Shown here piece by piece: positions 5,169-52,900 of a DNA stretch of 64,000 nucleotides. The position numbers and the translations under genes are program-made. Each line of letters starts with the position of its first letter. The stretch's first letter is position 1. Below the pieces are notes generated by a model. The model saw only the letters and a program-made list of their open reading frames with translations. It had not been told where the DNA came from and made no database searches. Source of the DNA: Malacoraja senta (lineage: Eukaryota); assembly GCA_038087875.1 (NCBI GenBank), contig CM075987.1, positions 18,726,001 through 18,790,000 of the forward strand, given 5' to 3'.

Positions 5169-6705
5169 CCAGGGTACTTAAGGAAGTGGCTCTAGAAATC
5201 GTGGATGCATTGGTGATAATTTTCNNNNNNNNNNNNNNNNNNNNNNNNNNNNNNNNNNNNNNNNNNNNNNNNNNNNNNNNNNNNNNNNNNNNNNNNNNNN
5301 NNNNNNNNNNNNNNNNNNNNNNNNNNNNNNNNNNNNNNNNNNNNNNNNNNNNNNNNNNNNNNNNNNNNNNNNNNNNNNNNNNNNNNNNNNNNNNNNNNNN
5401 NNNNNNNNNNNNNNNNNNNNNNNNATGGATTTACAAAGGGGAAATCATGCTTGACTAATCTTCTGGAATTTTTGAAGATGTAACTAGGAAAATGGACAAG
5501 GGAGAGCCAGTGGATGTAGTGTACCTGGACTTTCAGAAAGCATTTGATAAGGTCCCACATAGATTAGTGGGCAAAATTAGGACACATGGTATTGGGGGTA
5601 GAGTGCTGACATGGATAGAGAAGTGGTTGGCAGACAGGAAACAAAGAGCAGGGATTAACGGGTCCCTTTCAGAATGGCAGGCAGTGACTAGTGGGGTACT
5701 GCAAGGCTCGGTGCTGGGACCGCAGCTATTTACAATATACATCAATGATTTGGATGAAGGGATTCAAAGTAACATTAGCAAATTTGCAGATGACACAAAG
5801 CTGGGTGGCAGTGTGAACTGTGAGGAGGATGCTATGAGAATGCAGGGTGACTTGGACAGGTTGGGGGAGTGGGCAGATGCATGGCAGATGAAGTTTAATG
5901 CGGATAAATGTGAGATTATCCACTTTGGTAGCAAAAACAGGAAGGCAGATTACTATCTAATGGCGCCAAGTTGGGAAAAGGGGAAGTACAACGGGATCTG
6001 GGGGGTCCTTGTACATCAGTCTATGAAAGTAAGCATGCAGGTACAGCAGGGAGTGAAGAAAGCGAATGGCATGTTGGCCTTTATAACAAGAGGAATCAAA
6101 TATAGGAGCAAAGAGGTCCTTCTGCAGTTGTATAGAGCCCTAGTGAGACCACACCTGGAGTATTGTGTGCAGTTTTGGTTCCCTAATTTGAGGAAGGACA
6201 TTCTTGCTATTGAGGGAGTGCAGCGTAGGTTTACAAGGTTAATTCCCGGGATGGCGGGACTGTCATATGCTGCGAGAATGGAGCAGCTGGGCTTGTACAC
6301 TCTGGAGTTTAGAAGGATGAGAGGGTATCTCATTGAAACATATAAGATTGTTAAGGTTTGGACACGCTAGAGGCAGGAAACATGTTCCCGATATTGGAGG
6401 AGTCCAGAACTAGGGGCCACAGTTTAAGAATAAGGACTAAGCCATTTAGAACGGAGACGAGGAAACACTTTTTCTCACAGAGAGCGGTGAGTCTGTGGAA
6501 TTCTCTGCCTCAGAGGGCGGTGGAGGCAGGTTCACTGGATGCTTTCAAGAGAGAGCTAGATAGGGCTCTTAAAAATAGCGGAGTCAGGGGATTTGGGGAG
6601 AAGGCAGAAATGGGGTACTGATTGGGGATGATCAGCCATGATCACATTGAATGGCAGTGCTGGCTCGAAGGGCCCAATGGCCTACTCCTGCACCTATTGT
6701 CTATT
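5169..6705 (+). mobile_element. Young CR1/HER1-type LINE, 5' truncated (RT plus 3' UTR)
   Basis: ORF 5492-6370 has YLDFQKAFDKV, GSVLGP, FADD; tail (ctattgt)n; TSD gagtc at 5164-5168 and 6706-6710. Confidence 0.95.
5225..5424. other. Assembly gap (200 N)
   Basis: Run of N inside the CR1. Confidence 1.
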
Positions 6706-8990: not shown

Positions 8991-9247
8991 ATGAAGGTGT
9001 ATTAATCTGCAATTGTTTGTTAGAGTAAAACAGGATGACTGCATATACATCAACATAATTGGGACACATCATTTTAGATCTGGCATTCATCCCGATCAAC
9101 TGCTTCTCTGCACCGTGATGAAAAGGTGTCTTCCACCACCCCCCCCCCCCCCCCACACATACTTCATTAAATTGCTCAAGAAACAATATATTTAGTTTAG
9201 TTTAGAAATACAGCATGGTAATAGGCCCTTCAGCCCATCTATCACAC

Positions 9248-9387
9248 TTCTTCTTTGTGCTTATGCCGTGCACAGCCTAAAGTTGTACGACAACTTGTTC
9301 TATTTGATGTTATTTGATTGTGCACGCCAGGTTGATTGCATTCGTCGAAACAGGGCGGACCACGTGAAGGTTGCACTCTCCCACCCC
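9248..9387 (-). mobile_element. Second copy of the HDV-like ribozyme-headed element (ribozyme 9334-9387), inserted in an HE1-type SINE
   Basis: Minus strand reads GGGGTGGGAGAGTGCAACCTTCACGTGGTCCGCCCTGTTTCGACGAATGCAATC...aaagaagaag. TSD atctatcacac/atcgatcacac at 9237-9247 and 9388-9398. Confidence 0.85.
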
Positions 9388-12382: not shown

Positions 12383-13984
12383 CAGTGGCTTGCAAAAGTA
12401 TTCATACCCCTTGAACTTTTCCACATTTTGTCACGTTACAACCACAAATGTAAATGTATTTTATTGGGATTTTATGTGATAGACCAACACAAAGTGGTGC
12501 ATAATTGTGAAGTGGAAGGAAAATGATACATGGTTTTCAAATTTTTTTACAAATAAAAAACGGAAAAGTATTCAGCCCCCCTGAGTCAATACTTTGTAGA
12601 ACCACCTTTCGCTGCAATTACAGCTGCAAGTCTTTTGGGGTATGTCTCTACCAGCTTTGCACATCTAGAGACTGAAATTTTTGCCCATTCTTCTTTGCAA
12701 AATAGCTCAAGCTCAGTCAGATTGGATGGAGAGCGTCTGTGAACAGCAATTTTCATGTCTTGCCAGAGATTCTCAATTGGATTTAGGTCTGGACTTTGAC
12801 TGGGCCATTCTAACACATGAATATGCTTTGATCTAAACCATTCCATTGTAGCTCTGGCTGTATGTTTAGGGTCGTTGTCCTGCTGGAAGGTGAACCTCCG
12901 CCCCAGTCTCAAGTCTTTTGCAGACTCTTAACAGGTTTTCTTCCAAGATTGCCCTGTATTTGGCTCCATCCATCTTCCCATCAACTCTGACCAGCTTCCC
13001 TGTCCCTGCTGAAGAAAAGCATCCCCACAGCATGATGCTGCCACCACCATGTTTCACAGTGGGGATGGTGTGTTCAGGGTGATGTGCAGTGTTAGGTTTC
13101 CGCCACACATAGCGTTTTGCATTTAGGCCAAAAACTTCAATTTTGGTCTCATCTGACCAGAGCACCTTCCTCCACATGTTTGCTGTGTCCCCCACATGGC
13201 TTGCAGCAAACTGCAAACAGGACTTCTTCTGGCTTTTTTTCAACAATGGCTTTCTTCTTGCCACTCTTCCATAAAGGCCCAATTTGTGGAGTGCACGATT
13301 AATAGTTGTCCTGTGGACAGATTCTCCCACCAGAGCTGTGGATCTCTGCAGCTCCTCCAGAGTTACCATGGGCCTCTTGGCTGCTTCTCTGATCAATGCT
13401 CTCCTTGCCCGGCCTGTCAGTTTAGGTGGACGGCCATGTCTTGGTAGGTTTGCAGTTGTGCCATACTCTTTCCATTTTCGGATGATGGATTGAACAGTGC
13501 TCCGTGAGATGTTCAAAGCTTGGGATATTTGTTTATAACCTAACCCTGCTTTAAACTTCTCCACAACTTTATCCCTGACCTGTCTGGTGTGTTCCTTGGG
13601 CTTCATGATGCTGTTTGTTCACTAATGTTCTCCAACAAACCTCTGAGGCCTTCACAGAACAGCTGTATTTATACTGAGATTAGATTACACACAAGTGGAC
13701 TCTATTTACTAATTAGGTGACTTCTGAAGGCAATTGGTTGCACTGGATTTTATTTAGGGGTATCAGAGTAAAGGGGCTGAATACTTTTGCACACAACACT
13801 TTTCAGTTTTTTATTTGTAAAAAAATTTGAAAACCATGTATCATTTTCCTTCCACTTCACAATTATGCGCCACTTTGTGTTGGTCTATCACATAAAATCC
13901 CAATAAAATACATTTACGTTTGTAGTTGTAACATGACAAAATGTGGAAAAGTTCAAGGGGTATGAATACTTTTGCAAGCCACTG
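12383..13984 (-). mobile_element. Full-length Tc1 (Passport/Eagle/Glan-like) DNA transposon
   Basis: ~200 bp TIRs starting CAGTGGCTTGCAAAAGTATTCA, TA TSDs, transposase inside; inserted in a CR1 RT region. Confidence 0.95.
12586..13606 (-). pseudogene. Tc1 DD34E transposase with a single 1-nt frameshift near 12928
   Basis: Two overlapping ORFs carry [19 protein letters not shown] and [11 protein letters not shown]; 34 residues lie between the second D and E. Removing one base gives 339 aa. Confidence 0.92.
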
Positions 13985-18544: not shown

Positions 18545-18961
18545 TTACATATCAACAAACACCATAAAACACCAGCCCAGTCCTCCAACTAGCAGCATTG
18601 TCACATGGATCCCATAGATAAAGAGTTCATTCATGGTGTTAAAGTCAACACGCCTACGCCCCAGCAACAGAAGCACTATGGACAGCTTGTATTGAAAGCG
18701 CAAGGACACACGTATAGAGAAGTACTGGATGCAGAACAGGATAGAGAGTGCCACCCAGAGTATGGATGTAAAAAGACTGCAGCTGAAGTACAGCAGGAAG
18801 CGGATGAAGCTAAACAGCCACCGTGGTTTCAAGTAAAGGTCGAAGTTGTATTTGGTCCGGACAAGGTGCGCCGTCCGAACAGGGCCACATGTCGAGTGTA
18901 GACATGTAGAATGGGGGCCGTGGAATGAACGCACCCGCCGGGGGATTGGGATTAAAGGCAT
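18545..18961 (-). CDS. TMEM250: Transmembrane protein 250 (C9orf69 orthologue), 138 aa, single coding exon
   Basis: Translation MPLIPIPRRVRSFHGPHSTCLHSTCGPVR...VGGLGWCFMVFVDM closely matches recalled human TMEM250 (MPVMPIPRRVRSFHGPHTTCLHAACGPVR...GGLGWCFMVFVDM). ATG at 18961; the ORF track's TTG start at 19033 lies in the 5' UTR. Confidence 0.96.
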   Translation of the reverse strand: MPLIPIPRRVRSFHGPHSTCLHSTCGPVRTAHLVRTKYNFDLYLKPRWLFSFIRFLLYFSCSLFTSILWVALSILFCIQYFSIRVSLRFQYKLSIVLLLLGRRRVDFNTMNELFIYGIHVTMLLVGGLGWCFMVFVDM

Positions 18962-19084
18962 CAAGGCAGCTTGCTGCAATGTTCTCTCGGTGACAAGAGT
19001 CCCAGAAAAAGTGGCTTTGCAAACAGCAAACAAATCATCGTCCGTTAGTGGTCAACAGCTCCTCACTGTTTCCTTTCCAAAGGT

Positions 19085-19689: not shown

Positions 19690-21392
19690 ATCTAGGAGCT
19701 GAAAGGGCTGAAGGCGGATAAGTCACCTGGGCCGGATGGGCTGCACCGTAGGGTTCTGAAAGAGGTGGCTTTAGAGATTGTGGAGGCATGACAGTGATAT
19801 TTCAGGAATCACTAGTCAGGAGTGATCCCAGATGATTGGAAAATTGCCAATATTACCCTGCTGCACAAAAAGGGAGCAAGGCAGAATAGTGGGAACTATA
19901 GTCTGACTTCGGTGGTTGGTAAGATTTTACAGTGCATTAAGGAAGTATTCAGACCCCTTCACTTTTTCCACATTTTGTTACGTTACAGCCTTATTCTAAA
20001 ATGGATTAAATTCTTTTTTTGTATCATCAATCTACACACAATACCCCATAATAAAATAGGCCAAAGTCAGCATGGTTTTGTGAAGGGGAGGTCTTGCTTG
20101 ACAAATTTGCTGGAATTCTTTGAAGAAGTAAATAGCAGGACAGACAAAGGAGAGTCAGTAGATGCTGTTTACTTAGATTTTCAGAAGGCCTTTGATAAGG
20201 TTCCACACATTAGGCTGCTTAGGAAGATGAGAGCCCACGGTATCAAAGGGCAGATGACGCTACAAGCTTGGCACACCTGTATTTGGGTAATTTCTCCCAT
20301 TCTTCTCTGCAGAAGAGCAGGTTGGCTGGATGGCAGAAGACAAAAAGTGGCAATAAAGGGGGCATTTTCTGGTTGGCTGCCAGTGACTAGTGGAGTTCCT
20401 CAAGGGACGGTATTGGGGCTGCTACTCTTCACGTTGTATATTAATGATTTGGACAAGGGGATTGAAGGCTTTGTGGGAAAGTTTGCGAATGATACGAAAA
20501 TAGGTGAAGGGGCACATGGTGTAGAGAAAACAGGGACTCTGCAGAAGGACTTGGACAGGATGGTAAAGTAGGCAGAGAAATGGCAGATGGAATATAGTGA
20601 AGCAAAGTGTGGAGTCATGCATTTTGGTAGTAGGAATAAAGGTGTAGACTATTTTCTAAATGGGGTGAGAATCCAGAAATCGGAGGTGCAAAGGGACTTG
20701 GGAGTGAGTGCTGGTGCAGGATTTCCAAAAATTTAATCTGCCAGTCGAATCAGTAGTAAAGAAAGCAAACTGAATGCTAGCATTTATTTCAAGACGGCTT
20801 GTAAACAAAAACAAGGATATAATGTTGAGGCTGGCAAGGCCACATTTGGAATATTGTGTGCAATTGTGGACACCATATCTGAGGAAGGATGTGCTGGCTC
20901 TGGAGAGGGTTCAGAGGAGGTTTACAAGAATGATCCCAGGAATGAGTAGGTTAACCTATGATGAGCGTTTGTCGGCACTGGGCCTGTACTCACTGGAGTT
21001 TAGAAGAATGAGGGGGGACCTCATTGAAACATACAGAATAGTGAAATGCTTGGATAGTGGATGTGGAGAGGATATTTCCACTAGTGGGAGAGTCTAGAAT
21101 AAAGGTCATAACCTCAGAATTAAAGGACGTTCTTTCAGGAAGGAGATGAGGAGAAATGTCTTTAATCAGAGAGTGGTGAATCTGAGGAATTCTTTGCCAC
21201 AGACGGCTGTGGAGGCCAAGCCAGTGGATATTTTTAAGGCAGATATAGATAGATTCTTGATTAGTACAGGCGTCAGAGGTTATGGGGAGAAGGCAGGAGA
21301 ATGGGGTTAGGAAGGAGAGATAGATGAATGAATGGCGGAGTAGACATGATGAGCCGAATGGCCAAATCCTACTCCTATTCCTTATGACCTAT
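19690..21392 (+). mobile_element. CR1 LINE in TMEM250 intron 1, containing two Tc1-derived patches
   Basis: PDDWKIANI, QHGFVKGRSCLTNLLEFF, YLDFQKAFDKVPH, GVPQGTVLG motifs; CR1 3' UTR ending near 21390. Confidence 0.9.
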
Positions 21393-26752: not shown

Positions 26753-28401
26753 CTGTGCCCTCCATAATGTTTGCGACAAAGACCCATCATTTATTCATTT
26801 GCCTCTGTTCTCCACAATTTGAGATTTGTAATAGAAAAAAAATCACATGTGGTTAAAGTGCACATTGTCAGATTTGATTAAAGGGAATTTTTATACATTT
26901 TGGTTTCACCGTGTAGAAATTACAGCAGTGTTTACACATAGTCCCCCCATTTCAGGGCAACATAATGTTTGAGACACAGCAATGTCATGTAAATGAAAGT
27001 AGTCATGTTTAGTATTTTGTTGCATATCCTTTGCATGCGCAATGACTGCTTGAAGTCTGCAATTCATGGACATCACCAGTTGCTGGATGTCTTTTCTGGT
27101 GATGCTCTGCCAGACCTGTAATGCAGCCATCTTTAGCGTATGCTTGTTTTGGGGGCTAGTCCCCTTCAGTTTTCTCTTCAGCATATAAAAGGCATGCTCA
27201 ATTGGGTTCAGATCAGGTGATTGACTTGGCCACTCAAGAATTGACCATTTTTAGCTTTGAAAAAACTCCTTTGTTGCTTTAGCAGTATGTTTGGGATCAT
27301 TGTCTTGCTGTAAAATGAACTGCCAGCCAATGAGTTTTGAGGCATTTGTTTGAACTTGAGTAGATAGGATGTGCCTATACACTTCAGAATTCATTATGCT
27401 ACTACCATCAGCTGTTGTATCATCAATGAAGATAAGTGAGCCAGTTCCTTCAGCAGCTATATATGCCCAGGTCATAACACCCCCACCACCGTGTTTCACA
27501 GATGAGATGGTATGCTTTGGATCGTGGGCAGTTCCTTCTCTCCTCCATACTTTGCTCTTGCCATCACTCTGATATAAGTTAATCTTCGTCTCATCTGTCC
27601 ACAAGACCTTTTTCCAGAACTGTGGTTGCTCTTTCAAGTACTTCTTGACAAACTGTAACCCGGCCATCCTATTTTTGCGGCTAACCAGTGATTTGCATCT
27701 TGCAGTGTAGCCTCTGTATTTCTGTTCATGAAGTCTTCTGCGGACAGTGGTCATTGACAAATCCTCACCTTACTCCTGAAGAGTGTTTCTGATCTGTCGG
27801 ACAGGTGTTTTTTTCTTCTTCTTTATTATAGAGATAATTCTTCTGTCATCAGCTGTGGAGGTCTTCCTTGGCCTGCCAGTCCCTTTACGATTAGTAAGCT
27901 CACCGCTCTCTTTCTTCTTAATGATATTCCAAACAGTTGATTTTGGTGAGCCTAAGGTTTGGCTGATGTCTCTAAGTTTTATTCTTGTTTCTCAGTCTCA
28001 TAATGGCTTCTTTGACTTTCATTGGCACAACTTTGGTCCTCATGTTGATAAACAGCAATAAAAGTTTCCAAAGGTGATGGAAAAACTGGAAGAAAGACTA
28101 GGTGCTGAGAACTCTCTTATACCTGCATTAAGGAGGCAATTAAACACACCTGAGCAATTACAAACACACGCGAAGCCATGTGTCCCAAACATTATGGTGC
28201 CCTGAAATGGGGGGACTATGTATAAACACTGCTGTAATTTCTACATGGTGAAATCAAAATGTATAAAAATACTCTTTAATAAAATCTGACAATGTGCAAT
28301 TTAACCACATGTGACTTTTCTATTACAAATCTCAAATTGTGGAGTACAGAGGCAAATAAATAAATGACGGGTCTTTGTCCCAAACATTATGGAGGGCACT
28401 G
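26753..28401 (-). mobile_element. Degenerate full-length Tc1 transposon in TMEM250 intron 1
   Basis: TIRs C(A/T)GTGCCCTCCATAATGTTTG with TA flanks. Fragmented transposase ([19 protein letters not shown]) in ORFs 27251-27760 and 26906-27184. Confidence 0.9.
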
Positions 28402-43314: not shown

Positions 43315-43484
43315 GTCATAGTCATTGTGCTGTACAGCATGGAAACAGGCCCTTCAGCCCACCTTATCCATACCAACAAAGTATGATATATTGCGCTAGT
43401 CCTATATGCTCGCCTTTGGCCTATATTTTTCTAAACTCTCCCTATCTATATATCTTTTTTTTTTTTCTTTTTTTTTTAGGGGCC

Positions 43485-43535
<51 letters not shown>

Positions 43536-43880
43536 GAGCACTCCCTATCTATATATCTGTCCAAACATTTTTTTAAAGTCGTAATTGTATCCATTTCTGT
43601 AAGTTCCTCTGGCAGTTCATTCCAGATACAGACTGCCCTCTGAGTGAAACATTTGCCACTGATGCCTCTTCTAAATCTCTCTCCTCAAGCCTTAAGTATT
43701 TGCCATTTAGTTTGAGAGTCCTCTACCCTGGGGAAAAAGACCGTGAGTGTTCACTTTATCCATGACCCACATGATCTTGTACACCTCAATACGGTTACTC
43801 CACAGCCTCTTACACGCCAAAGAAAATTCTCCCAGCCTATCCAACCTCTCCCTATAACTCAAGCCCATATTCCCAGTTAA
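43315..43880 (-). mobile_element. Old CR1 3' fragment hosting the U6 retrocopy
   Basis: Minus-strand translation GLSYRERLDRLGEFSL..IEVYKIM; CR1 3' UTR. Confidence 0.75.
43456..43541 (-). pseudogene. RNU6: U6 snRNA retropseudogene (U6 nt 1-64 plus poly(A))
   Basis: 43541-43478 is identical to recalled U6 nt 1-64 (GTGCTCGCTTCGGCAGCAC...GCATGGCCCCT), followed by an A-tail. 17-bp TSD tccctatctatatatct at 43439-43455 and 43542-43558. Confidence 0.96.
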
Positions 43881-49092: not shown

Positions 49093-49789
49093 AAACTCAC
49101 TGTCAATGTCTTGAAATCACTTACAGATCTGAGGAACATTCTTGAACCTCTCGTCTACATCCCTTGAGAAACAAGTAGGAAAAATGAGGAAAGCAGTAAA
49201 GGGAGAGAGGACTCCATTTTAGCGAACATGTGTCAGGCCTTGTTACGGATGCTTTATATTGAACCATGCCAATATTCTGGACAGATTACTGAATATCTCA
49301 TAACAAGGCTCTACGCAGTCTTCATCAACTCAACGTAAATTTCCAAATGACACCACTGTGGTATTTGGTGGTAAGTGGCATTTAAGAGGCTTTTAGCTGG
49401 GGGCCTGAATATGCAGGGGCTGGAAGGATATGGATCACACGCAGGCAGAGGAGATTAGTTTAGCTTGGCAACATGTTCGGCACGGACATGGTGGGCCAAA
49501 GGACCTGTTTCTGTGCTGTACTGTTCTTGTTCTATGTAACGACCTTTTAATACAGTACCTTTAACATTGTAAAAAGACACAAAGCCCTTCAAAGCATTTG
49601 ACATCAAACTACATAATTAAATATTAAGGTAACCTAGCCAGACAGGTGGGTATTAAAGATTACCTTAACTGGATAGGGAGGACAAGGGGGAGACATTGAG
49701 GGACAAAATTCCTACACTTAAGACCTTTGATGCTAAAGTACATCCACTGATGCAGAAACAACGTTATAACAGGGTTTTTACTCAAAAAT

Positions 49790-49843
49790 GGGGTGGAAGA
49801 TTGCAACCTTCACGTGGTCCGCCCTGTTTCGACTAATGCAATC
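49790..49843 (+). ncRNA. Minimal HDV-like (CPEB3-type) self-cleaving ribozyme, predicted
   Basis: P1 GGGGUGG/CCGCCCU (G1-U wobble), P2 GAUUGCA/UGCAAUC, P3 ACC/GGU, L3 UUCACGU, GU after P1, J4/2 CUAA; P4 reduced to UUCGA. Confidence 0.8.
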
Positions 49844-49925
49844 AACTCGACGTGCACAAACAGAAGATCAAATAGAACAAGTTGTCCTACAACTTTAGGC
49901 TGTGCATGCCACACGAAAGAAGAAG
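49790..49925 (+). mobile_element. Short non-autonomous retroelement headed by an HDV-like ribozyme, with (GAA)n tail
   Basis: Second copy at 9248-9387 (-). TSD actcaaaaat/actaaaaaat at 49780-49789 and 49926-49935; tail aaagaagaag. Confidence 0.85.
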
Positions 49926-52900
49926 ACTAAAAAATGAACCCATTATATCGGCAGCCGAATGGAGATGGGCTGTGACTATGTCTACCATGGTCTAAGAAGG
50001 TGCCTGAGGTATGGAGCTGTCCACTAACAGTGTCACGCAGAGGGCAGGAGGCAGAATTCCCATGGGATTCACCTGACTCTCCCCGTAGTCAAGATGCAGC
50101 TGGGAGTTTAGACAAACAGAGCAAGTGGTTTCCAAATCAAACATTGGGATCATTTTGGAAATTCTAATCCCAGCATTAATGGAGAAAAATCTTTTCATAC
50201 AAAGATCCAAACTGGACACTTTCTTGCAAGAAAGCAGCTTGGTGCTGAACAATGACTCCAGCAGATTAATTACCAAGAGACCCGTTTCCGTTCCTGCAAA
50301 TTATAATTTGGCCTTGGCTTGTTAATTAGATACCTCCTCAACCTACATGGTTTCAATGATTACAGAATCTTTTAATTAGTTAATCATTACCAACATTTGG
50401 GATATTGGTTAATTAACCCTCTGCCCTCTCCAGTCTACTTTTGACGTCCAATGAAGAATTGCTTCATAAAGTAGTAATTAGTACAGTAAAGGGTAAAGGT
50501 CAGGTGAAACCATTCCTTGTCCGTCTTTGGACTTGTCCATTTGCACTTTTCAAAAGCGGCCATCCTCTCACGATCGTCAAGCACTGATGTTCTGGCATCC
50601 TACCTGAGTTCTCTTCACGTGAAGACCAGTTACAGAGTTAGTCAATGACAATAGGTGTCCGTGGACGACAGGACTCAATGACAATGATAAGAATGATAAG
50701 ATGCAGCTCTAAAGACTTTAGAGTCTTTGGTGATGTAGCTCTAAAGACTTTGGGTCCTGACCCAAACAATTGCCTATCCTTGTCCTCCAGAGATGTTCTT
50801 CTGCCGTTGCGTTACTCCTGCACTTTGTGTTTTACTCTATAAGACTTTGGTTAGGTTGCATTTGGAGTATTGCCTGCAGTTCTGGTTGCCCCATTACAGG
50901 AAGGATGTGGAGGCTTTGGAGAGGGTGCAGAGGAGATTTACCAGAATGCTGCCTGGATTAGGTGATATTAGCTACACGGAGAATTTGGACAAATTTGGAT
51001 TATTTTCTCTAAAATGTCAGAGGTTGAGAGAAGACCTGGTAGAAATACATAAAATTAAGAGAGGCATAAATAGGCTGAATGGTCACAACCTTGACATATG
51101 CCTGAGTGGATAGTGCCCAGAAAATGGGCATGAATCTATCTGATTTCTCAGCTCCAACACACCTAACACACACTCCCCAGCAGAGGTCAGCATCAGAGTA
51201 AAGAACGCGCTGCTGAGGTCTCTCACTAACCTGATTTTCTTCCTGCTGTTATTGCACAGGATTTCACTAAAACTGCCACATTTAACATCACAGATACCAG
51301 CAATAGGACATTTAAAAAACACAGAGTTCTCAGCCCCATCTTTGGAGAGATAAACATTTCAGAACAATCGCCTATGCTCAAAATCATTACTCGGGCAAAG
51401 CCCTGATCTTAAACTCCTTGCCATTACTTCCAAATCCATCCTTCAGTCCCAACAGTCTGTATTCCTCCAATTCATTCCCCGATTGTGGTTCTTCCTAATG
51501 GCAGCTTTAAGCTACCGTGAACCCCCCAACTTCTGAAACCTCTTCTTGGAACCTTTTGTCTTTCCACCTATCTCTGCTCCTTTAAAATTGATTGATTGAT
51601 TGATTGAATGGTACAGCATGTAAACAGGCCCTTCCTCCCACCAAGGCCATGCCAACCATCGATCACCCATTCACATTAGTTCTCATCCACTCCCCACACA
51701 CTGATGGCAATTTTACAGTGAACGATTAACCTACAAACCCGCACATGTTTGGGACATTGAAGCACCCAGAAGAAACACAGGCGGTCACAGGGAGAACGTG
51801 CAAACTCCAAACAAACTGTACCTGAGATCAGAATCGAACCTAAGCCTCTGGTGCTGCGAGACAGCAGCTCTACCAGCTGCGCCACTGTGCCGCCCTTTAA
51901 ATCACCCAAATAGATTTGCTTCCAACTAAGCAACTGGGGACACAAGGAACTGCACAAGGATGATGGAATCTATCTCTCCAATCTCTCCTAAGAGCCCGGG
52001 AGCTCCTGTTACAGTAGTCGCTTCATAAATGCCCAAAAGCATGGTGATACTCACTAAAACGTGGACAGAAGTAGTTGGAGTGAACAGCGTTGATGCATTT
52101 GAGGAAACCTGAAGAGTGAGGGTGGATGGAATTCTGTGAAGATTTGTTGATTGAGGTTGAAGGAGACAACTGTGGAACACCAGCACCAACGTGAATCAGA
52201 TGGGCCAAATGGCCTGTTTCTGTGCTGTACTATATATTGCCCAGCAATTCTCTCAACCGGAGACACCGCCTCAACCGGCCCTTCCAGGTTGTGTGCCCCT
52301 TTCTAAAGAGCCTCACAGGAGAGAGAACTCCCTCCCGTCTGCAGGTGAATCTGAAGCCAGTTGGAGAACAAGAAAGGAGCCAACGGATCTGAAAGAATAA
52401 ATATTTCATAACAGCCTAACAATAGCAAGAATGCTTGGCGAGTGGAGAAGCAGGATGAGAGGAGGATTATCAGAGAGTAAAATTAAATATATCTTCACAA
52501 TGCTATCCTGTAGGAAATTCAGGCCATTTGGCCCATCTGATTCATGTTGGTGCGAGTGGTCCACAGTCGTCCCACTCCACCCCTATCATCAACTCCCATC
52601 ACAAACTCATCACCACTTCACCGTTCCATCCATCGCTGCACTATCCAATTGAGAAAAAGGTAAAACAAAAAAACCTAATTGGAAGAACTCAGCGGGTCAG
52701 TCAGCATCCACGGTGGGAATGGACAGATGGCATTTCAGCGCGGGACCCTTCTTTAGAGAAAAGATTAAACTCTGCTTCTTCAGTGACATATTTTGGGGTA
52801 ATTATTCAATAGAATATTCACGTTGTGTTCTGTGATTTCTCGATTCTTAAACTAAAAGGCAAAAATGGGAAAATTTACAATTTGGCAGTGAACAGAAATA

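What the first reader, a model, noticed from the sequence alone, without database searches (positions are those of the whole stretch)
49790..49925. SINE-like retroelement whose head is a minimal CPEB3-type HDV-like ribozyme
Seen: the first 54 nt form a complete nested double pseudoknot. P1 is 49790-96/49819-25 with a G1-U wobble, P2 49799-805/49837-43, P3 49806-08/49816-18, L3 UUCACGU, then GU, a UUCGA linker in place of P4, and J4/2 CUAA with the presumptive catalytic C at 49833. The element starts at G1, has no tRNA/5S head, ends in (GAA)n and has TSDs. Established: L3 UUCACGU, GU after P1 (single-pair P1.1) and CGAA are the recalled core of the mammalian CPEB3 ribozyme; HDV-like ribozymes define 5' ends of R2/RTE-type elements and Drosophila R2-derived SIDEs. 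Inference: a promoterless element that self-cleaves out of host transcripts and borrows a LINE RT (RTE-like, judging from the tail). Such a family could seed HDV-like ribozymes into vertebrate introns and may bear on how CPEB3-type ribozymes arose. I do not know of it being described in chondrichthyans.
Basis: partly seen in the sequence, partly recalled or inferred. Interest (0 to 1): 0.92.

Follow-up and report, generated by a model that had tools for sequence, protein, structure and literature searches.

The report
Ribozyme-headed short retroelement family
A 136-base mobile element present in thousands of young copies begins exactly at the predicted cut site of a very small hepatitis-delta-type self-cutting RNA fold, so it probably cuts itself out of host transcripts before being copied back into the genome; the principle is known, but this stripped-down form in a vertebrate-like genome appears unreported.

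Summary
Window 49790-49843 folds as drawn: P1 7 bp with G1-U, P2 7 bp, P3 3 bp, L3 UUCACGU, a 5-nt linker instead of P4, and J4/2 CUAA. Two Rfam HDV models align end to end to this stretch, but far below their cut-offs. The 136-nt element has 10-bp target-site duplications and a (GAA)n tail. It belongs to a family with at least 2566 first-look candidates in the 1.94-Gb genome. All 30 best copies and 6 copies picked without regard to the head start at G1.

Best reading (about 0.65): a promoter-less, non-autonomous retroelement whose 5' end is made by a minimal, P4-less HDV-like ribozyme.

- **Cleavage:** not shown. Only assembled contigs were available.
- **Covariation:** uninformative, with 0 compensatory changes in 33 pairs, because the family is too young.
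- **Partner LINE:** none found that shares the head or tail (six pattern searches). The one apparent "LINE with head and tail" is a CR1-like LINE nested in a copy. The RTE guess is unsupported.
- **CPEB3:** the core motifs are shared, but membership of the CPEB3 family fails its model.
- **Host:** the chondrichthyan host was not verified.

It is a new variant of a known kind. Interest 0.6.

The parts
49780..49789 (+). Left target-site duplication ACTCAAAAAT
   Evidence: 9 of 10 identical to 49926-49935.
49790..49843 (+). 54-nt P4-less HDV-like fold. P1 49790-96/49819-25; J1/2 49797-98; P2 49799-805/49837-43; P3 49806-08/49816-18; L3 49809-15; G-U 49826-27 (C49811-G49826 is a single P1.1 pair); linker 49828-32; J4/2 49833-36 with the candidate catalytic C at 49833
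   Evidence: global sub-threshold alignments to RF02682 and RF00094; descriptor against shuffles.
49844..49910 (+). Body: an imperfect long hairpin. Outer stem 49849-58 with 49901-10 (10 pairs, one A-C mismatch in this subfamily); inner hairpin 49881-85 with 49889-93. Presumed recognition structure for the reverse transcriptase (inferred).
   Evidence: fold; the body profile hits its own reverse strand; helices 5 and 6: 91% and 90% of cells paired, no compensatory change.
49911..49925 (+). 3' tail ACACGAAAGAAGAAG. The number of GAA units differs between copies.
   Evidence: tails before the duplication range from GAAAGAAGA to GAAAGAAGAAGAAGAAGAAGAAG.
49926..49935 (+). Right target-site duplication ACTAAAAAAT
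9247..9387 (-). Second, older copy of the same family (86.5% identical, J4/2 CGAA, one P2 mismatch) with its own duplication TGTGAT(C/A)GATGG

Best explanation
The element is a 136-nt non-autonomous non-LTR retroelement with three parts: (i) a 54-nt minimal, P4-less HDV-like self-cleaving ribozyme, (ii) a long imperfect hairpin, and (iii) a (GAA)n tail.

Proposed cycle:
1. A copy lying in sense orientation in any transcribed region is co-transcribed with its host. (Inferred.)
2. The ribozyme cuts 5' of G1 and frees an RNA whose first base is G1. (Inferred from the fold and from the exact 5' ends.)
3. A LINE reverse transcriptase, still unidentified, recognises the 3' hairpin and/or the (GAA)n tail and copies the RNA into a staggered nick by target-primed reverse transcription. 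(Inferred from duplications of about 10-12 bp, variable GAA number and 5'-truncated copies.)
4. Copying runs to the cleaved 5' end, so each full-length copy again starts at G1 and carries a complete ribozyme that needs no upstream sequence. (Shown for the DNA copies.)

The family is very young (copies 98.5-100% identical). It has older subfamilies and occurs in contigs of at least three other coded organisms.
For: **Fold**
- All helices and core residues of HDV-like ribozymes are present: G1-U, a C-G P1.1 pair next to a U-U, U and G at L3 positions 1 and 6, a C at the start of J4/2, and two As after it.
- The same register is returned by two HDV covariance models, and for the second copy.

**Chance**
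- Descriptor hits are 0.07 per 64 kb in shuffles.
- 51 of 54 hits in 327 kb are heads of this family.
- The hit starts on the very first base of the element.

**5' ends**
- 30 of 30 best copies (25 independent) start at G1 with unrelated upstream DNA.
- 22 of 25 have an exact duplication of 7 bp or more, and in 15 of 25 it abuts G1 exactly.
- 6 of 6 copies of another subfamily, selected only by a body motif, also start at position 1 with duplications.
- In contigs of coded organisms A, B and C, unrelated flanks begin at 49789/49790 and at 49923-49927.

**No other source for the 5' end**
- No tRNA, 5S, 7SL or snRNA similarity.

**Variation**
- In the assessable part of the head (from 49820 on), variants that pass the listing threshold (5% in at least one run) fall at C49820>U and G49821>A (both keep their pair), at linker G49831, and at the second base of J4/2 (49834 U>G/A). 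None falls at C49833, at the two As or at P2.
- The three subfamily-diagnostic head differences are A8/G (J1/2), G32/A (U-G to U-A) and U45/G/A.

**Precedent**
- HDV-like ribozymes make the 5' ends of R2, RTE, Baggins and L1Tc, and of the non-autonomous SIDEs and NARTc (PMC6765202 and PMC3185411 passages; PMC3414825 abstract).
- P4-less HDV-like ribozymes cleave in vitro (PMC10879173 and its preprint, passages and one section).
Against: - No cleavage assay was possible, and there is no RNA-end evidence. All 24 runs offered were assembled contigs, and the tool found no places where molecules begin.
- The Rfam scores (15-16 bits) are far below the cut-offs (44, 50).
- My descriptor was written after seeing the element. 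Its chance rate of 0.07 per 64 kb implies about 2000 chance hits genome-wide, so the fold alone proves little.
- No compensatory change in 33 pairs; the percentage paired equals that of shuffles.
- Variable positions are about as frequent in the head as in the body among positions that contigs can assess. Three of the four head variants lie in CpG dinucleotides, so mutation bias explains them as well as selection does.
- No autonomous element with this head or tail was found, so the mobilising enzyme is unknown.
- A weak B-box-like GTTTCGA (6 of 9 consensus positions by my reading; consensus recalled) lies inside the head.
Confidence: 0.65

Rival explanations
1. This is a conventional SINE-type element whose 5' end is a transcription start. 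It would use an unrecognised internal Pol III or other promoter in the head. The HDV-like drawing would then be fortuitous or non-catalytic.
For: - Uniform 5' ends and high copy number are also what Pol III SINEs show.
- There is no run of four Ts inside the element.
- A B-box-like GTTTCGA lies at 49826-32 (6 of 9 consensus positions by my reading; consensus recalled).
- The Rfam scores are sub-threshold, and there is no covariation.
- The fold descriptor is expected about 2000 times by chance in a genome of this size (extrapolated).
Against: - No tRNA and no tRNA, 5S, 7SL or snRNA match at E up to 10.
- The A-box match is poor (4 of 9 by my reading).
- Chance would also have to place the fold on the element's first base, give it an L3 identical to the one in the CPEB3 model, a J4/2 identical to the one in the HDV model, and a G-C plus U-U P1.1 (PMC4836649 passages).
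Confidence: 0.2
2. The head descends from an HDV-like ribozyme but now serves mainly as a structured 5' module. It would bind the reverse transcriptase, as the R2 5' pseudoknot does, or protect the uncapped RNA end or guide second-strand steps. Cleavage would be weak or lost.
For: - In R2 the ribozyme region also binds the R2 protein (PMC6765202 passage).
- P4 is absent, and P1.1 is a single G-C pair next to a U-U.
- No cleavage data exist.
Against: - An exact G1 start in all full-length copies still needs an end-making step.
- All catalytic-core residues are kept in every subfamily seen (C44, A46, A47, G37, C22 invariant in 31 of 31 rows, although several rows were selected by patterns that cover these positions).
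- Published P4-less ribozymes are active (PMC10879173).
Confidence: 0.1
3. The element is a short internally deleted derivative (SIDE-like) of a LINE in this genome that carries the same ribozyme and the same 3' end. The first reader guessed an RTE-type LINE.
For: - This is how R2 SIDEs and NARTc relate to R2 and L1Tc (PMC3414825 abstract; PMC3185411 passages).
- At first sight L053 showed head, then ORF1/ORF2 (esterase, endonuclease, RT), then tail, all within one 12-bp duplication.
Against: - L053 is a nested insertion. The LINE inside it ends in its own (ATGGTTAT)n-type tail before the element's body resumes. Ordinary copies of that CR1-like LINE (L073) carry neither the head nor the tail.
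- Six pattern searches that exclude the element itself found only mutated, truncated or interrupted copies and no recurrent foreign context: 20 hits; 18; 14; 24; 20; 36; only 6 of the 36 fetched, all full-length copies of the element; the rest judged from the 4-nt context in the table.
- No tail-only match in 327 kb of sample.
Confidence: 0.1

Closest known systems
HDV-like ribozymes at the 5' ends of non-LTR retrotransposons (R2, RTE, Baggins, L1Tc)
   Same: The ribozyme's G1 is the first base of the mobile RNA. The elements lack promoters and are co-transcribed. Upstream flanks are unrelated and downstream sequence is conserved (PMC6765202, passages read).
   Different: Those are autonomous, protein-coding elements whose ribozymes have a P4. 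Here there is no ORF, no P4, and no related autonomous element was found.
NARTc and other Pr77-bearing non-autonomous elements of trypanosomatids
   Same: They are dispersed non-autonomous elements whose first bases form an HDV-like ribozyme. Cleavage at +1 has been shown in vitro for NARTc (PMC3185411, passages read).
   Different: NARTc shares its first 77 nt with the autonomous L1Tc, and Pr77 is also a promoter (PMC3383444, abstract in the listing). Here no parent was found and promoter activity is unknown. The host is a vertebrate-like genome, not a protist.
Drosophila R2 SIDEs
   Same: They are short, ORF-less, ribozyme-headed parasites of a LINE (PMC3414825, abstract in the listing).
   Different: SIDEs insert site-specifically in 28S rDNA and are internal deletions of R2. 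This family is dispersed, with duplications of about 10-12 bp, and no parent sharing its ends was found.
Minimal (P4-less) HDV-like ribozymes and theta ribozymes of gut phages
   Same: They have the same stripped-down architecture without P4, and are active in vitro and dependent on the catalytic C (PMC10879173 passages; preprint 10.1101/2023.06.13.544163, section 5 read).
   Different: The authors report nearly 99% of them in bacteriophages and none in the eukaryotic genomes they searched (human, mouse, protists). Their role there is tRNA 3' processing, not retroelement 5' processing.
Mammalian CPEB3 ribozyme (Rfam RF00622)
   Same: L3 UUCACGU is identical. CCCUGU follows P3, and CGAAU in J4/2 matches in the older copy (alignment). 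P1.1 is one G-C pair next to a U-U (PMC4836649 passage).
   Different: CPEB3 is a single-copy intronic ribozyme with a P4. The model scores the older copy at 10.1 bits (cut-off 35) and does not report the focal copy at all. P1 and P2 sequences differ. A related L3 (UCUaCGU) also occurs in the bacterial RF02682 consensus, so the resemblance may reflect shared constraint rather than descent.
Ribozyme-bearing SINE-like elements of Schistosoma (hammerhead; twister variants)
   Same: They are short non-autonomous retroelements that carry a self-cleaving ribozyme (PMC6765202 passages; PMC8501958 abstract).
   Different: They use a different ribozyme class, and the hammerhead SINEs are reported as Pol III transcribed.

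Membership tests
HDV-like (delta-like) self-cleaving ribozymes | Nested double pseudoknot in the order P1, P2, P3, L3, P3', P1', (P4), J4/2, P2', with a 7-bp P1 that starts with G1 paired to U | tested here: met
   read directly. Searches give the same register from RF02682 and RF00094.
HDV-like (delta-like) self-cleaving ribozymes | Core residues: catalytic C at the first position of J4/2, two As after it, a C in L3 that pairs with the G after P1 (P1.1), and U and G at the ends of L3 | tested here: met
   C49833 aligns under the model's C in GCuAA. These residues are invariant in 31 of 31 aligned copies (some rows were selected by patterns covering these positions).
HDV-like (delta-like) self-cleaving ribozymes | Score at or above the curated cut-off of an Rfam HDV-family model | tested here: not met
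   RF02682 16.0 bits against 44; RF00094 15.0 against 50. Nothing at gathering level. The models include a P4 that is absent here.
HDV-like (delta-like) self-cleaving ribozymes | Site-specific self-scission 5' of G1, dependent on Mg2+ and on the catalytic C | not testable with these tools
   Only contigs were available, and the tool found no molecule starts.
HDV-like (delta-like) self-cleaving ribozymes | Covariation supporting the helices | tested here: inconclusive
   33 pairs, 0 compensatory changes, 93.7% of cells paired against 93.8% in shuffles. The only systematic change is U-G to U-A at pair 5/32 (10 of 31). The family is too homogeneous for this test.
Minimal HDV-like ribozymes (P4-less) | No P4 helix between P1.1 and J4/2 | tested here: met
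   Five nucleotides (UUCGA) lie between GU and the catalytic C. The models' 20- and 35-nt P4 stretches align to 5 nt.
Mammalian CPEB3 ribozyme (RF00622) | Model score at or above 35 bits; P4 present; location in a CPEB3 intron | tested here: not met
   No hit at E up to 10 for the focal copy. The older copy scores 10.1 bits as a local match. P4 is absent, and the element is a dispersed repeat.
SINE in the strict sense | Head derived from tRNA, 7SL, 5S or snRNA with an internal Pol III promoter | tested here: not met
   ARAGORN finds no gene. Rfam gives no such match at E up to 10. Promoter activity itself was not tested.
LINE-mobilised non-autonomous retroelement | Dispersed copies with target-site duplications, a 3' simple-repeat tail of variable length, and 5'-truncated copies | tested here: met
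   (22 of 25 with an exact duplication of 7 bp or more, mode 10-12). (9 of 18 pattern hits begin at element position 17).
SIDE-type internal deletion derivative / stringent SINE-LINE pair | An autonomous element in the same genome that shares the 5' and/or 3' end | tested here: not met
   Searches found none. L053 proved to be a nested insertion. Limits: the patterns needed near-identity, only the best candidates are scored, and the protein search of the genome failed.

The most novel reading that the evidence does not exclude
This would be the first minimal (P4-less) HDV-like ribozyme found in a eukaryotic genome. At 54 nt it would serve as the only 'promoter substitute' of a currently or very recently active retroelement with thousands of copies, and the element has no sequence-related autonomous parent. 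Because any co-transcribed copy can be a source, the family scatters ready-made ribozymes with a CPEB3-like core (identical L3, the same P1.1, and CGAA in older subfamilies) through vertebrate transcription units. That is a concrete route by which single-copy intronic ribozymes such as CPEB3 could arise by domestication.
Probability: 0.3. Interest if true: 0.8.

Novelty: new variant of a known kind. Interest (0 to 1): 0.6.

Why it matters
If the head cleaves, it shows three things. First, the P4-less HDV-like ribozyme, so far reported almost only from phages, also works in animal genomes. Second, a ribozyme plus a 3' hairpin and a simple-repeat tail is enough for a retroelement to reach thousands of copies without a promoter of its own. 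Third, it would give a natural 54-nt ribozyme for study, thousands of potential cleavage sites inside host transcripts (with possible effects on pre-mRNA processing), and a testable model for how intronic HDV-like ribozymes are seeded.

If it does not cleave, the family is simply a new SINE-like repeat with an unclassified head.

Tried and rejected
1. **L053 as the autonomous partner.** It carries head, then ORF1/ORF2, then tail within one duplication. Rejected: the inner LINE ends in its own octamer-repeat tail before the element resumes. An ordinary copy of that CR1-like LINE (L073) has neither head nor tail.

2. **L051, L052 and L054 (head followed by foreign DNA).** The downstream DNA is other common repeats or an inverted repeat, not a shared family. 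No duplication was found for L054.

3. **Protein search of the genome with the LINE ORF2.** The tool gave no answer three times. I used a DNA query instead.

4. **RNA evidence for a 5' end at G1.** Only Logan contigs were offered. The tool lists no molecule starts, and contig ends at 49789/90 may be assembly breaks at repeat borders. This is no evidence either way.

5. **Covariation.** Uninformative.

6. **Head versus body conservation in contigs.** No clear difference, and CpG decay confounds it.

7. **Other HDV-like folds in 327 kb of sample, with P4 allowed.** None besides this family.

8. **(GAA)n-tailed LINE ends in the sample.** 10 non-element (GAA)3+ sites, none LINE-like. nhmmer with the body profile found only copies of the element and their own reverse strand.

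9. **Host taxon.** Two Atlas look-ups gave no usable taxon. A TMEM250 ORF suggests a vertebrate, but the range of that family is recalled, not tested.

10. **Earlier findings of this scan.** Nothing on this genome or sequence. Of the 81 'HDV ribozyme' notes, the 8 shown are on other genomes and none concerns this family.

11. **Literature.**
 - An 18-nt string of the head occurs in 0 papers.
 - 'HDV-like' with 'shark': 2 papers, neither on this by title.
 - 'HDV-like ribozyme' with 'SINE': 13 papers, none on vertebrate elements by title or abstract.
 - 'HDV-like, ribozyme, CR1, retrotransposon': 2 papers.
 - 'HDV-like, ribozyme, retrotransposon, fish': 32 papers, 25 listed, none on such an element by title.
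 - One search was badly framed and useless.
 - Ruminski 2011 and Webb 2009 are not held, and Riccitelli 2014 was not sought, so their supplementary lists of ribozyme-bearing repeats could not be checked. Neither could Dfam or Repbase.

Full report
**What is in the sequence**

- P1: GGGGTGG (49790-96) with CCGCCCT (49819-25), with G1-U at the base and one internal U-G.
- P2: GATTGCA (49799-805) with TGCAATC (49837-43), seven Watson-Crick pairs.
- P3: ACC with GGT, and L3 TTCACGT.
- After P1: GT, the five-base linker TTCGA where P4 would be, and CTAA with its C at 49833.

The strand order is that of HDV-like ribozymes (P1, P2, P3, L3, P3', P1', linker, J4/2, P2'). C49811 in L3 can pair with G49826 as a one-pair P1.1, next to a U-U. 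The CPEB3 NMR paper describes the same arrangement for CPEB3: 'one G-C and a less stable U-U' (PMC4836649, passages read).

**Independent scoring**

Rfam at gathering thresholds reports only a U6 gene in the window. With E-value thresholds, two HDV-family models align over their full length to this stretch:
- RF02682: 16.0 bits, E 1.1 on 301 nt and E 0.23 on 63 nt.
- RF00094: 15.0 bits, E 1.7.

G1 falls at the models' first paired base, and C49833 falls under the C of the consensus GCuAA. The 20- and 35-nt P4 stretches collapse to 5 nt. These scores are far below the cut-offs (44 and 50). They are also not independent of the way the site was chosen.

I wrote a simple descriptor after seeing the element. 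It requires:
- a 7-bp P1 with G1-U;
- a 3-bp Watson-Crick P3;
- an L3 of 6-8 nt;
- a G after P1;
- a 2-12 nt linker;
- a C four bases before a 7-bp P2, with at most one mismatch.

It gives 2 hits in the window, both heads of this family, against 7 hits in 100 dinucleotide shuffles. In 327,096 sampled bases, 51 of 54 hits are heads of this family and 3 lie in a GT-rich stretch. By extrapolation, about 2000 chance hits are expected in a genome of this size. The fold alone is therefore weak evidence. Its position is what counts.

**The element and its family**

The window lies in a 1.94-Gb assembly. The 136-nt query has 2566 first-look candidates. Of the 42 rows returned, 40 are full-length matches at 99-100% identity.
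- In all 30 loci fetched, similarity starts at G1 and the upstream DNA is unrelated.
- 25 of the 30 are independent insertions. 22 of the 25 have an exact duplication of 7 bp or more (11 bp in 8, 10 in 5, 12 in 4, 9 in 3, 8 in 1, 7 in 1).
- In 15 of the 25 the duplication abuts G1 exactly. Most of the rest differ by a mismatch or indel near the junction.
- The focal copy has ACTCAAAAAT / ACTAAAAAAT.
- The number of GAA units varies between copies.
- 5'-truncated copies exist: 9 of 18 hits begin at element position 17.

Copies chosen without regard to the head behave the same way. Six copies of a further subfamily were found through a body motif. All six are full length from position 1 and carry duplications. 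The second window copy (9247-9387, minus strand, 86.5% identical) and an incidental copy in L059 are also full length.

Three or four incidental copies in about 0.33 Mb suggest on the order of 10^4 copies. This is a very rough figure.

At least four subfamilies are visible. In the head they differ only at three positions:
- position 8 (A/G, in J1/2);
- position 32 (G/A, turning U-G into U-A);
- position 45 (U/G/A, the second base of J4/2).

The body differs at about eight positions and by indels.

**The rest of the element**

The body is a long imperfect hairpin: outer stem 49849-58 with 49901-10, inner hairpin 49881-85 with 49889-93. A profile of the body hits its own reverse strand. It is followed by ACACGAAAGAAGAAG. 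I take the hairpin plus tail to be the part a reverse transcriptase recognises. This is inference from how stringent SINE/LINE pairs work (recalled).

**Other organisms**

All 24 listed public runs (14 studies, nine coded organism labels, one metagenome, one unnamed) hold part of the element's sampled words. 22 of the 24 hold half or more. Contigs were laid for three coded organisms: 785, 609 and 169 contigs. In these, cover starts at 49788-90 and ends at about 49926, with unrelated loose ends at both borders.

All runs are assemblies, and most are only guessed to be RNA. They therefore show presence and borders, not transcription or RNA ends.

Contigs can assess the head only from 49820 on. 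There, the variants that pass the listing threshold (5% in at least one run) are C49820>T, G49821>A, G49831>A and T49834>G/A. None is listed at C49833, at the two As or at P2. The first three lie in CpG dinucleotides, so mutation bias explains them as well as selection does.

**Covariation**

31 natural copies were aligned. Across them, the 33 pairs of the drawn structure show no compensatory change, and 93.7% of cells are paired against 93.8% in shuffles. The family is too young for this test.

**The partner LINE**

I searched for any element that shares the head or the tail. The patterns forced the neighbouring bases to differ from the element itself.

| What the pattern asked for | Hits |
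|---|---|
| 3' half of the head followed by a non-element sequence | 20 |
| P3-L3-P3' core with a different P2 | 18 |
| P2-P3-P1 followed by something other than the linker (a P4) | 20 |
| 5' arm of the body without the head | 14 |
| Last 22 nt with a different upstream | 24 |
| Mid-body junction | 36 |

All reversed-pattern controls gave 0. What I could inspect was indel variants, truncations, interrupted copies or further subfamilies of the element, with two chance matches. For some searches I read the fetched loci. For some searches I read the matched strings in the tables. For one search I read the 4-nt context and fetched 6 of the 36. No foreign context recurred.

One locus looked like the sought element. 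In L053 the head is followed by an ORF1 with an esterase-like end, an ORF2 with endonuclease and RT domains, and then the element's tail, all inside one 12-bp duplication. It is a nested insertion:
- The LINE ends in its own TATGGTTA-type repeat before the element's body resumes at about position 51.
- An ordinary copy of that LINE (L073) ends in (ATGGTTAT)n and has neither head nor tail.
- The family has 9400 first-look candidates and copies about 95-97% identical.

The C-terminal protein motifs and octamer tail look CR1-like to me, from recall only.

So there is no support for an RTE-like or any other identified partner. Limits of this negative result:
- the patterns needed near-identity;
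- only the best candidates are scored;
- the protein search of the genome failed;

**Comparison with CPEB3**

The CPEB3 model does not report the focal copy. It gives 10.1 bits (cut-off 35) for the older copy, whose J4/2 is CGAA. That alignment prints the CPEB3 consensus. The focal copy's CUAA is the HDV version.

The L3 of the bacterial RF02682 consensus (UCUaCGU) is also close. The resemblance may therefore reflect constraint on a small catalytic core rather than descent. The element works like a CPEB3/HDV-type ribozyme on paper, but it is not a member of the CPEB3 family.

**What is known**

- A review states that HDV-like ribozymes terminate R2, Baggins, RTE and L1Tc. [quoted passage not shown]
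- NARTc cleaves at +1 in vitro (PMC3185411, passages).
- SIDEs are ORF-less R2 derivatives (PMC3414825, abstract).

P4-less 'minimal' HDV-like ribozymes were first found in metagenomes. The authors of the theta-ribozyme study report nearly 99% of them in bacteriophages and none in the eukaryotic genomes they searched (PMC10879173 passages; preprint section 5).

My searches found no paper on a P4-less HDV-like ribozyme in an animal genome, or on such an element in cartilaginous or other fishes. Ruminski 2011 and Webb 2009 are not held, Riccitelli 2014 was not sought, and Dfam and Repbase could not be consulted.

**Verdict**

The most likely reading (about 0.65) is a promoter-less, non-autonomous retroelement whose 5' end is made by a minimal HDV-like ribozyme.
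- Shown: the fold, its exact coincidence with the 5' end across subfamilies and coded organisms, the retroposition hallmarks, and the absence of a small-RNA-derived head.
- Inferred: cleavage, co-transcription and the role of the 3' hairpin.
- Open: the mobilising enzyme and the host taxon. A TMEM250 ORF in the window suggests a vertebrate, nothing more.

It is a new variant of a known kind. Interest is moderate to high because the claim is directly testable and would extend minimal HDV-like ribozymes to animal genomes.

Noticed in passing
L078:5471-5553 (-) = G000:C1:320228970-320229052: A canonical P4-bearing HDV-like ribozyme candidate elsewhere in the same genome. RF00094 scores it 43.8 bits (cut-off 50) and RF02682 21.8 bits. 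It has a 7-bp P1 with G1-U, an 8-bp P2, L3 UCCCCGC, and CUGGGCAAC after P1 as in the HDV consensus. It was the only match at E up to 10 genome-wide, and no ORF of 100 aa or more lies on the downstream strand within about 2 kb. Its setting is unknown.
   Followed up: partly
L053:400-3652 and L073:2421-5715: An abundant CR1-like LINE family with 9400 first-look candidates and copies about 95-97% identical. ORF1 has a GDSL/esterase-like end, ORF2 has endonuclease and RT domains, and the 3' end is an (ATGGTTAT)n-type octamer tail. One 5'-truncated copy is nested at position 51-55 of a copy of the ribozyme element.
   Followed up: partly
window 43433-43541 (-): A U6 snRNA gene or retropseudogene: RF00026 at 68.6 bits over the full model length.
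   Followed up: no
window 18545-19051 (-): An uninterrupted ORF matching Pfam TM250 (transmembrane protein 250) at 263.9 bits. This is the only evident host gene seen in the window.
   Followed up: no
window 12866-13618 (-), 27251-27769 (-), 5459-6370 (+), 19816-20571 (+): Tc1/mariner-type transposase fragments (HTH_Tnp_Tc3_2, Sleeping Beauty HTH) and two reverse-transcriptase fragments. The window is rich in repeats.
   Followed up: no
L031:1419-1558 (-): One old copy in which the 5' arm of the body hairpin is extended (TGCGTATGGCGTGCACA). It pairs perfectly, over 17 bp, with the 3' arm plus the start of the tail. It may be an older form of the 3' structure or a one-off rearrangement.
   Followed up: no
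L032:1374-1600 (same as L033 and L051): A head-only fragment (positions 1-55). About 71 nt just downstream of it is the 97% inverted repeat of a stretch lying about 30 nt upstream of it. Unexplained.
   Followed up: no
L009:1416-1671: A young copy inserted into an older, oppositely oriented copy of the same family, with duplication AGCCTAAAGT. Contigs of two runs also show a partial copy (1-68) directly followed by a full copy from G1 (joint 49857 to 49790).
   Followed up: no
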